This document shows positions 2,614 through 2,714 of a stretch of DNA of 8,011 bases, one piece after another. The DNA comes from a virus: positions 1 through 8,011 of IMG/VR virus record IMGVR_UViG_3300029356_000282. The stretch is one strand, 5' to 3'. How positions within the stretch are numbered: position 1 is the stretch's first letter; each line of letters starts with the position of its first letter. Under the pieces are notes generated by a model, which was not told the origin of the DNA, did no database searches, and saw nothing but the letters and a program-made list of their open reading frames with translations. A program made the position numbers and the translations under genes.

Positions 2614-2714
2614 CTCACAGGCAGACAAGGGCTGTCCGCGTATTATCCGTAAAATAGTTAGACTTTCCCTAAGAGTTTTAATCCTTTTGCGGACAGTTCC
2701 TGTGTGCCTGTGAG
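2614..2714 (+). ncRNA. Long rod-like hairpin (candidate structured RNA, processing site or ssDNA element)
   Basis: The 26-nt arms 2614-2639 and 2689-2714 pair at 24 of 26 positions when read as + strand RNA. Two of those are G.U pairs (2630/2698, 2631/2697) that would be A-C mismatches on the other strand. The apical part folds as UAAAAU/GUUUUA (2650-2655/2675-2680), a tandem AG/GA internal loop, UUAG/CUAA (2658-2661/2669-2672) and a 7-nt loop. No U-tract follows. Confidence 0.55.

What the first reader, a model, noticed from the sequence alone, without database searches (positions are those of the whole stretch)
2614..2714. 100-nt rod-like hairpin with + strand-specific G.U pairs between early genes
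Arms 2614-2639 (CTCACAGGCAGACAAGGGCTGTCCGC) and 2689-2714 (GCGGACAGTTCCTGTGTGCCTGTGAG) pair at 24 of 26 positions on the + strand. The two mismatches are 2624/2704 and 2628/2700. Two of the pairs are G.U wobbles that become A-C mismatches on the other strand, so selection appears to act on the + strand RNA (or + ssDNA). The interior forms a second helix (6 bp, tandem AG/GA internal loop, 4 bp, heptaloop). That helix is joined by asymmetric linkers that both contain AUCC. The arms are GC-rich in an AT-rich region. No U-tract follows, so it is not an intrinsic terminator, and no ORF covers it. Possible roles are an RNase III-type processing or stability site segmenting the early polycistron (as in T7 early mRNA), a stand-alone ncRNA, a regulator of the downstream 37-aa peptide gene, or a single-strand DNA initiation or origin element placed just before the replication genes.
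Basis: partly seen in the sequence, partly recalled or inferred. Interest (0 to 1): 0.65.

Follow-up and report, generated by a model that had tools for sequence, protein, structure and literature searches.

The report
Conserved RNA hairpin at phage module joint
A roughly 100-base hairpin in the early operon of a family of gut prophages is real and its pairing is kept on the transcribed strand in 82 related sequences, so it is most likely a structured piece of the early messenger RNA (a processing or stability signal) at the point where these phages swap gene modules, but what it does is untested.

Summary
The hairpin at 2614-2714 is real (+ strand RNA -49.7 kcal/mol, z -8.3). It matches no Rfam family or tRNA and is not coding.

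I found the same element in 82 loci (35 variants, 101-121 nt) from gut and wastewater phage contigs. It occurs once per phage, always on the sense strand. It starts about 10-20 nt after a stop codon and ends about 21 nt before the next start.

It follows at least four unrelated upstream genes and precedes at least three different downstream sequences (two identified genes). Arm variants travel with their flanks, so crossovers fall inside it.

The 24-pair interrupted stem is paired in 99.7% of cells on the + strand and 86.7% on the - strand. Variation is almost all G.U-mediated, with stepwise compensatory series. The interior comes in six unrelated types with no conserved helix.

It is not a terminator, a MITE or a stand-alone sRNA. 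It does not mask the downstream SD. Eighteen relatives lost it by deletion, so it is dispensable.

An origin-like repeat region lies about 7.3 kb downstream. That weakens the origin reading, although the loop shares an 11-mer with that region.

Best reading: a cis-acting dsRNA element of the early polycistronic mRNA, acting as an RNase III-type processing site or decay barrier at a module joint. This function is inferred, not shown.

The parts
2614..2639 (+). 5' arm of the stem (CTCACAGGCAGACAAGGGCTGTCCGC). Its outer 8 nt (CTCACAGG or CTTGCAGG) travel with the upstream gene.
2640..2688 (+). AU-rich interior (49 nt here; 49-69 nt in the six interior types) with no conserved secondary structure. 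The 5' motif UAUUAUCCGUAAA recurs in most types.
2663..2675 (+). Loop motif CTTTCCCTAAGAG, the only interior motif shared (with changes) by most types. It is an exact 11-mer match to the origin-like gap downstream of the primase-helicase gene.
2689..2714 (+). 3' arm of the stem (GCGGACAGTTCCTGTGTGCCTGTGAG). Inner variants (TTCC, TCTA, GGCTCC) travel mostly with the downstream module.
2360..2593 (+). Upstream 77-aa early gene of unknown function (context U1). Its stop lies 20 nt before the stem. In relatives it is replaced by three other, unrelated small genes.
2724..2850 (+). SD (GAGG, about 2727-2730) and the 37-aa single-helix membrane peptide gene (ATG 2737). The SD and AUG are predicted to be unpaired next to the hairpin.
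791..819 (+). Promoter-like site (TTGACT-17-TATAAT with TG) flanked by ACTTTG-N6-CAAAGT palindromes. It is the inferred source of the rightward early transcript that would contain the hairpin.
   Evidence: consensus match only; transcription not shown

Best explanation
The element is a cis-acting structured RNA within the rightward early polycistronic transcript of a temperate Firmicute (Clostridia-type) gut phage lineage. Its functional part is a 26-position interrupted double-stranded stem: 10 bp, an invariant G.G mismatch, 3 bp, an invariant A.C or A.A mismatch, then 11-12 bp. The stem is capped by a large, replaceable AU-rich loop. The element sits exactly at the boundary between the variable switch and accessory-gene region and the module that leads into the replication and recombination genes.

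The most likely mechanism is that the stem acts as an RNase III-type processing site and/or as a barrier to exonucleases. In Firmicutes these would be the 5'-to-3' RNase J and the 3'-to-5' exonucleases. This would uncouple the stability of the upstream and downstream mRNA segments and leave a free SD 10 nt downstream.

Because the sequence is conserved between otherwise unrelated flanks, it also serves as the crossover point where modules are exchanged. This restricts arm evolution to wobble-compatible changes.

Shown: the structure, its strand-specific conservation, its single-copy fixed position, mosaicism around it, its dispensability and the free SD. Inferred: that it is transcribed, that it is cleaved or blocks decay, and the enzyme involved.
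For: - Stable fold: -49.7 kcal/mol, z -8.3.
- 82 loci and 35 variants. 99.7% of the 1968 stem cells pair on + and 86.7% on -. Twelve pairs carry +-only wobble states (261 cells) and four pairs carry --only states (6 cells). Seven polymorphisms present in 5 or more loci are all +-compatible.
- Stepwise series: U-A / U.G / C-G at pair 20; G-C / G.U / A-U at pairs 16 and 17; A-U / G.U / G-C at pair 4; C-G to U-A at pair 26. The incompatible combination is never seen at these five pairs.
- L099 keeps the stem with a wholly different interior.
- The element is always on the sense strand. It starts 10-20 nt after a stop and ends about 21 nt before a start.
- SD and AUG are unpaired.
- No promoter-like or terminator-like site at the element in the window.
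- One copy per locus in 634 kb.
- A 26-bp duplex meets the generic requirement for RNase III, which in B. subtilis cuts within extended duplexes of mRNAs (PMC11780869).
- Arm variants are linked to their flanks and interior types assort freely, which shows crossovers inside the element.
Against: - There is no transcript data of any use. Transcription, cleavage and the effect on stability are all untested.
- By pair counts alone the strand asymmetry is only P about 0.04-0.05. A coding-strand C-to-T mutation bias could contribute.
- Sequence diversity is low (effective sequence number 1.28), so covariation is modest.
- The tool warns that related sequences can beat every shuffle without any structure.
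- A plain dsRNA function does not explain the large loop, the invariant mismatches, or the loop motif shared with the origin-like region.
- The element has been lost by deletion in 18 relatives, so any function is non-essential.
- Only one such site exists per phage, unlike the multiple RNase III sites of T7 (my own knowledge).
Confidence: 0.45

Rival explanations
1. It is a single-stranded DNA hairpin with a role in replication or recombination. It would form on one DNA strand during replication. It could act as a second cis site for the protein that binds the origin repeats, in the way ori and crr cooperate in phage P4. Alternatively it could be a hairpin substrate or entry point for the adjacent Rad50/SbcC-like ATPase and Sak4 recombination module.
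For: - The strand-specific G.T-tolerant pairing would also fit ssDNA.
- The element lies 470 nt upstream of an AAA_23/SMC_N ATPase, a Sak4-like annealase, a helicase and a primase-helicase.
- The loop motif CTTTCCCTAAG is the only 11-mer the hairpin shares with the other 10.3 kb of this phage, and it falls in the origin-like gap.
- In L046 the exact 9-mer TTCCCTAAG occurs four times in 14.7 kb: once in the loop and three times in that gap, against 0.11 expected.
Against: - The motif link is post hoc. About 0.45 shared 11-mers are expected somewhere in 10 kb.
- The motif is altered in interior types B, D and F. No co-variation with the origin type was seen: L095 has a type B loop with the same origin as type A phages.
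- A complete origin-like region (iterons, an AT-rich palindrome and its own hairpin) already exists elsewhere.
- The element's tight fit between a stop codon and an SD suggests an mRNA feature.
- It is dispensable in 18 relatives.
Confidence: 0.15
2. It is a protein-binding regulatory RNA of another kind. Examples would be a put-like or nut-like element that modifies RNA polymerase, or a binding site for a phage or host RNA-binding protein that times expression of the replication module.
For: - The G.G and A.C/A.A mismatches are invariant and the UAUUAUCCG motif beside the stem is conserved. This suggests specific recognition rather than generic dsRNA.
- The element sits at the entry to the delayed-early module.
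Against: - No terminator-like site lies downstream that would need to be overridden.
- No Rfam match at E up to 1.
- The element lies about 1.8 kb from the promoter-like site at 791-819, whereas put sites lie close to their promoters (my own knowledge).
- No candidate partner protein is consistently linked to it. The upstream genes are interchangeable.
Confidence: 0.15
3. It is only a conserved recombination linker at the DNA level, where modules are exchanged by homologous recombination, like the PeSLs of T4-type phages. The hairpin shape would be incidental.
For: - At least 25 combinations of upstream gene, 5' arm, interior, 3' arm and downstream gene exist. Arms are linked to their flanks.
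- PeSLs are described in PMC2839356.
Against: - A linker needs no inverted symmetry. Here the two arms stay complementary on one strand through wobble and compensatory changes.
- The element is single-copy. It shows no promoter-like or terminator-like site in the window scan and no second copy in the loci, whereas PeSLs combine a promoter and a terminator.
Confidence: 0.1
4. It is a leader that controls the small membrane peptide, like the structured 5' region of a type I toxin mRNA.
For: - A 36-37-aa peptide with one hydrophobic helix and a basic tail starts 22 nt after the stem in 50 of 69 loci that carry that gene.
- A leftward promoter-like site (3222-3194) and a leftward terminator-like site (2599-2585) could give an antisense RNA across it.
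Against: - The element also directly precedes a YdcK-type solenoid gene and a third context.
- The SD is not sequestered.
- No loop-SD pairing.
- The leftward terminator-like site exists only in one of the upstream contexts.
- In 18 loci the peptide gene persists without the hairpin.
Confidence: 0.05
5. It is a miniature inverted-repeat transposable element (MITE) or IS remnant.
For: It has 26-bp terminal inverted repeats around an AT-rich core, a size of 101-121 bp and sharp borders against unrelated flanks.
Against: - No target-site duplication.
- One copy per phage and always the same position and orientation.
- An exact 22-mer of the arm is absent from one representative genome of each of 185,579 species.
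- Sites lacking it keep 8-10 nt of the 5' arm, so they are deletions and not empty sites.
Confidence: 0.02

Closest known systems
RNase III processing hairpins of phage early polycistronic mRNAs (T7 R0.3-R1.3; Bacillus phage SP82 early sites; lambda N-leader and sib). Recalled from my own knowledge; the general B. subtilis RNase III rules are from PMC11780869.
   Same: An intercistronic hairpin on the sense strand of an early operon. The stem spans two or more helical turns and is interrupted by conserved internal mismatches. No U-tract follows. The next cistron's SD lies just downstream.
   Different: Cleavage is not shown. There is one site per phage instead of several. The loop is very large (49-69 nt) and replaceable. 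The sequence is nearly invariant across phages and doubles as a recombination joint.
Intercistronic stabiliser hairpins and decay barriers (REP hairpins in the E. coli mal operon, Rhodobacter puf hairpins, 5' stem-loop stabilisers such as the B. subtilis aprE and ermC leaders). My own knowledge.
   Same: A very stable stem between cistrons. It could block 3' exonucleases for the upstream segment and RNase J for the downstream segment, with a free SD right after it.
   Different: It is not repeated in the genome. It is much longer than needed for a barrier. No half-life data exist.
PeSLs (promoter-early stem-loops) of T4-type phages (PMC2839356, PMC4122927)
   Same: A conserved short non-coding cassette containing a stem-loop that marks the points where related phages exchange gene modules.
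   Different: PeSLs combine a strong promoter with a terminator and are present in many copies. This element shows no promoter-like site, has no U-tract and is single-copy. Its stem is kept by strand-specific covariation.
Phage P4 ori and crr, two distant cis sites sharing initiator-binding repeats (my own knowledge; relevant to the novel reading only)
   Same: A motif from the origin-like repeat region recurs once in a separate non-coding element several kb away. The two sites flank the replication genes.
   Different: Here there is a single copy of the motif, inside a hairpin loop. The motif is not conserved in all variants, binding is untested and the element is dispensable.

Membership tests
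RNase III processing site (phage early mRNA type) | Extended double-stranded RNA (about 20 bp or more) formed on the transcript | tested here: met
   A 24-pair stem over 26 positions, -49.7 kcal/mol. It is kept in 99.7% of cells across 82 loci.
RNase III processing site (phage early mRNA type) | Staggered cleavage by RNase III in vivo or in vitro (2-nt 3' overhang) | not testable with these tools
   The only RNA runs are shallow wastewater contigs that carry no end information.
RNase III processing site (phage early mRNA type) | Lies within a polycistronic transcript, between cistrons | tested here: inconclusive
   The ORF layout and sense orientation fit in every locus. Transcription itself is inferred from a promoter-like match at 791-819.
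Intrinsic (rho-independent) terminator | GC-rich stem followed at once by a U-run | tested here: not met
   The 3' flanks are purine-rich SD regions in all contexts. The scan lists no terminator here on the + strand.
MITE / IS-derived element | Target-site duplication and clean empty sites | tested here: not met
   No duplication at any of the flank types. Sites lacking the element retain 8-10 nt of the 5' arm.
MITE / IS-derived element | Multiple dispersed copies in host or phage genomes | tested here: not met
   One copy per locus in 634 kb. There were 0 hits for the arm 22-mer in genome contigs.
PeSL-type regulatory cassette | Promoter plus terminator stem-loop, many copies per genome | tested here: not met
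   No promoter-like or terminator-like site at the element in the window, and a single copy. Only the recombination-joint property is shared.
Any Rfam 15 family or tRNA/tmRNA | Covariance-model match or ARAGORN call | tested here: not met
   No match at E up to 1 over the whole window. No tRNA or tmRNA.
Type I toxin mRNA leader | Structure sequesters the toxin SD or pairs with an antisense RNA, and is strictly linked to the toxin gene | tested here: not met
   SD and AUG pair probabilities are 0.07 and 0.11. Loop-SD duplexes are no better than shuffles. The element also precedes other genes.
Phage replication origin | Cluster of iterons with an AT-rich unwinding region | tested here: not met
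   The element has no internal direct repeats. Such a cluster lies instead after the primase-helicase gene. Only one motif copy is shared.

The most novel reading that the evidence does not exclude
The hairpin is a dual-use element. As RNA it segments the early message. Its loop also displays a copy of the origin repeat (CTTTCCCTAAG), so that the phage's origin-binding protein, or the neighbouring Rad50/SbcC-like and Sak4 recombination machinery, acts on it as folded single-stranded nucleic acid. This would couple expression or initiation of the replication module to a second cis site 7 kb from the origin, and would make the hairpin a programmed hotspot for module exchange.
Probability: 0.1. 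Interest if true: 0.7.

Novelty: new member of a known kind. Interest (0 to 1): 0.4.

Why it matters
If the leading reading is right, this is a clean natural example of an unclassified RNA motif in common gut prophages. It would insulate the message for the replication module from a highly shuffled accessory region. It would also show how an RNA structure constrains evolution when its two halves are inherited with different gene modules: only wobble-compatible changes survive. It gives a compact, testable handle (about 100 nt, with natural deletion variants) on post-transcriptional control in Clostridia-type phages, where almost nothing is known. It is not a surprise in kind, because phage early mRNAs are known to carry processing hairpins.

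Tried and rejected
- Rfam at E up to 1 and ARAGORN found nothing.
- BLAST of the region against GenBank phages gave only chance-level hits. The whole window matches only a Sak4 gene segment of two Streptococcus phages at 72-80%.
- An exact arm 22-mer was absent from genome contigs, so the host was not identified. The nearest replication-module relatives are Clostridia MAGs at 68% or less.
- Covariance model R1 gave no hit at E up to 10 in 66 distant prophage loci, and no second copy in the family loci.
- A MITE reading was rejected.
- Coding was rejected.
- A conserved interior helix was rejected.
- A loop-SD pseudoknot was rejected (mean z +0.6).
- No sigma-70-type promoter-like site at or in the element on either strand in the window (also inspected by eye).
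- RNA-seq end mapping was not possible. The runs hold short, shallow contigs.
- Attempts to build families for the analogous hairpins of L200 and L179 found no relatives in viral contigs. The diverged L129 arm also has no relatives.
- The interior-anchored metagenome scan found more contexts but no diverged co-varying stems.
- A first RNAfold sliding scan timed out and was replaced by a stem-extension scan.
- The genome search and the fetch from genomes were shut, so whole phage genomes and the window's assembly could not be examined.

Full report
**Observation**

The inverted repeat is exactly as described. Arms 2614-2639 and 2689-2714 pair at 24 of 26 positions. The mismatches are G2624.G2704 and A2628.C2700, and there are two G.U pairs. 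As + strand RNA it folds at -49.7 kcal/mol (z -8.3; 0 of 200 shuffles fold as well). The - strand folds at -40.7. The arms are 63.5% GC in a 38% GC window, and the interior is 28.6% GC. In the window alone the strand difference is small (24 versus 23 pairs), because the A.C mismatch becomes G.U on the other strand.

**Setting**

The window is the lysogeny switch and early region of a temperate Firmicute phage:
- an S24/HTH repressor (54-698, - strand)
- a Cro/DUF739 protein (854-1102, +)
- small ORFs
- a 77-80-aa gene (2351/2360-2593)
- the hairpin
- a 37-aa membrane peptide gene (2737-2850), followed by two more small ORFs
- an AAA_23/SMC_N ATPase, a Sak4-like annealase, a 158-aa protein, a DEAD/ResIII helicase and a PriCT_2/AAA_25 primase-helicase

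Rfam (E up to 1) and ARAGORN find nothing. Runs holding the sequence are mouse-gut, synthetic-community and wastewater samples. Some of the metagenome contigs that carry it are labelled human gut. The host was not identified. The nearest replication-module relatives in representative genomes are Clostridia MAGs at 68% identity or less.

**Relatives**

Pattern scans of IMG/VR and JGI metagenomes recovered the element in 82 loci as 35 distinct variants of 101-121 nt. Its borders are sharp. It always lies on the coding strand. It starts 10-20 nt after a stop codon and ends about 21 nt before the next start, with the SD about 10 nt after the stem.

The upstream gene is one of at least four unrelated small genes:
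- the 77-80-aa gene of this window
- a 93-aa gene
- an HTH_17 excisionase-like gene
- a 62-aa gene

The downstream context is one of three: the membrane peptide gene, a YdcK-type beta-solenoid gene, or a third context not identified here.

A covariance model built on 29 variants finds exactly one copy per locus in 634 kb. It finds none (E up to 10) in 66 more distant prophages that share the replication module. An arm 22-mer is absent from one genome of each of 185,579 species.

**Structure conservation**

On the + strand, 99.7% of the 1968 stem cells form standard pairs, against 86.7% on the - strand.
- Twelve of the 24 pairs carry wobble states that pair only on the + strand (261 cells, several at about 50% frequency).
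- Four pairs carry states that pair only on the - strand (6 cells, each in one or two loci).
- By pair count this gives P about 0.04. All seven polymorphisms present in five or more loci are +-compatible.

Five pairs show stepwise or full compensation: pair 20 U-A / U.G / C-G; pairs 16 and 17 G-C / G.U / A-U; pair 4 A-U / G.U / G-C; pair 26 C-G to U-A. The incompatible combination is never seen. Sliding the 3' partner by one to three columns drops pairing to 28-54%.

The G.G mismatch is invariant and the A.C/A.A mismatch nearly so (C.C in a few loci).

Caveats: the sequences are closely related (effective number 1.28), the shuffle control is not a probability, and a coding-strand C-to-T bias could add to the asymmetry.

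The interior comes in six unrelated types (49-69 nt). RNAalifold predicts no shared helix. Each type folds weakly (-1 to -5 kcal/mol) and differently. L099 keeps the stem around a completely different interior.

**Mosaicism and loss**

The outer 5' arm variant (CTCACAGG or CTTGCAGG) is strictly linked to the upstream gene. The inner 3' arm variant is mostly linked to the downstream module. The interior types assort with both, giving at least 25 combinations. Crossovers therefore fall inside the element, which makes it a module joint.

Among 69 loci with the peptide gene, 50 have the hairpin directly upstream and 18 lack it, through at least two differently structured deletions:
- 17 keep CTCACAGG fused to ATAAAGAGAGG.
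- One keeps CTTGCAGGCA fused to CAAGTGAAAG.

These are deletions that leave a 5'-arm remnant, not empty target sites. One metagenome copy is truncated after the interior (L246). The element is ancestral in this lineage and dispensable.

**What it is not**

- Not a terminator: the flank is purine-rich and has no U-run.
- Not coding: lengths differ by non-multiples of 3 and most frames have stops.
- Not a MITE: no target-site duplication, a single copy at a fixed site, absence from the genome collection and deletion remnants.
- Not a stand-alone sRNA: the upstream flanks vary, so no upstream promoter is conserved, and there is no terminator.
- Not an SD mask: pair probabilities are 0.07 for the SD and 0.11 for the AUG. 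The loop does not pair with the SD region beyond chance (mean z +0.6).

**Origin question**

About 7.3-7.6 kb downstream lies a non-coding gap of about 300 nt, just after the primase-helicase gene. It was seen in L046, L095, L107 and L108, and in L214, which continues the window's own sequence. It holds iteron-like repeats, its own inverted repeats, an AT-rich palindrome (TATATATACTACGTATATATA) and a conserved right part. This is the expected look of an origin, which lowers the origin reading for the hairpin.

However, the one motif shared by most interior types, CTTTCCCTAAG(AG), matches this gap exactly.
- It is the only 11-mer that the hairpin shares with the other 10.3 kb of the phage.
- In L046 the 9-mer TTCCCTAAG occurs only in the loop (once) and in the gap (three times), with 0.11 expected.
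- The link is post hoc. The motif is altered in types B, D and F, and I saw no co-variation with origin type.

I keep it as the basis of the novel reading.

**Mechanism**

The strand-specific conservation, the sense orientation, the fit between stop codon and SD, and the lack of promoter or terminator features point to a structured segment of the early polycistronic mRNA.

A 26-bp interrupted duplex is a generic RNase III substrate. In B. subtilis the enzyme cuts within extended mRNA duplexes (PMC11780869). A stem of this stability would also block exonucleases from either side. I therefore favour a processing and decay-barrier role at the entry to the replication module (confidence 0.45 for this mechanism; about 0.85 that it is a selected single-stranded fold).

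Three features are not explained by plain dsRNA recognition and leave room for a specific protein partner or an ssDNA role: the conserved mismatches, the UAUUAUCCG motif and the large loop.

**Comparison and novelty**

The element works most like the RNase III sites of T7 and SP82 early mRNAs and like intercistronic stabiliser hairpins (my own knowledge). It resembles PeSLs of T4-type phages only in marking recombination joints (PMC2839356). Membership in any of these families is not established.

It is an unclassified RNA motif of a narrow, common gut-phage lineage: a new member of a known kind, of moderate interest.

Two more distant prophages carry analogous long hairpins in the same kind of position: L200 (103 nt, -59.7 kcal/mol, same stop/hairpin/SD layout) and L179 (108 nt). 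No relatives were found that would allow a test of homology.

Noticed in passing
L214:6720-6995 (continuation of the window; window 7901 = L214 4732); also L046, L095, L107, L108 about 7.3-7.6 kb downstream of the hairpin: A non-coding gap of about 300 nt after the 731-aa PriCT_2/AAA_25 primase-helicase gene. It holds iteron-like repeats (GGGACAGACAA and GGGACAAAATCGA in L214; GGAAAAAGTCGA and TTCCCTAAGAGGGAA in L046), an AT-rich palindrome (TATATATACTACGTATATATA) and a conserved right part. It is the likely replication origin. The iteron set differs between phages that share the same hairpin.
   Followed up: partly
window 2663-2675 versus L214 about 6872-6882: The loop motif CTTTCCCTAAG is an exact 11-mer match to the origin-like gap. 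The related TCCCTAAAA also sits in a small hairpin (GACTCCCTAAAACAGGGACTC) that follows the big hairpin, or precedes the peptide gene, in some relatives (L086, L134).
   Followed up: partly
L200:2226-2328 and L179:815-922: Two distant Clostridia prophages with the same replication module carry long sense-strand hairpins between small early genes (103 nt and 108 nt, 21-24 bp stems). Both have a UAUYAU..CCG-like motif after the 5' arm. Homology with the window's element is unproven.
   Followed up: partly
L119, L121, L123, L124, L126, L127, L130-L132, L136-L141, L144, L146, L133; L246: Natural derivatives that lack the hairpin. Seventeen share the junction CTCACAGG|ATAAAGAGAGG and one has CTTGCAGGCA|CAAGTGAAAG. 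L246 keeps the 5' arm and interior but has lost the 3' arm. They are ready-made comparison strains.
   Followed up: yes
window 1080-1111, 1735-1766, 2108-2139: A 32-nt repeat (ACGTAGGTAATATAAGAAAGTAGGTGAG..) precedes three small genes and ends in their SD.
   Followed up: no
window 794-811, 821-838, 1061-1078: Three ACTTTG-N6-CAAAGT palindromes lie around the promoter-like site 791-819 and at the end of the cro-like gene. They are probable operators.
   Followed up: no
window 3222-3194 (-) and 2599-2585 (-): A leftward promoter-like site (TTGATT-17-TATAAT with TG) at the start of the ATPase gene, and a leftward terminator-like hairpin just past the big hairpin. Together they could give a roughly 600-nt antisense RNA across the three small genes. 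The terminator-like site exists only in the 80-aa upstream context.
   Followed up: no
L214-L219: Many independent short-read assemblies break 16 nt upstream of the ATPase gene. This fits an assembly fork at another module joint.
   Followed up: no
window 1236-1722: Earlier notes claim a permuted group I intron here. My Rfam scan of the whole window at E up to 1 returned no match, which a permuted arrangement might explain. I did not examine it.
   Followed up: no
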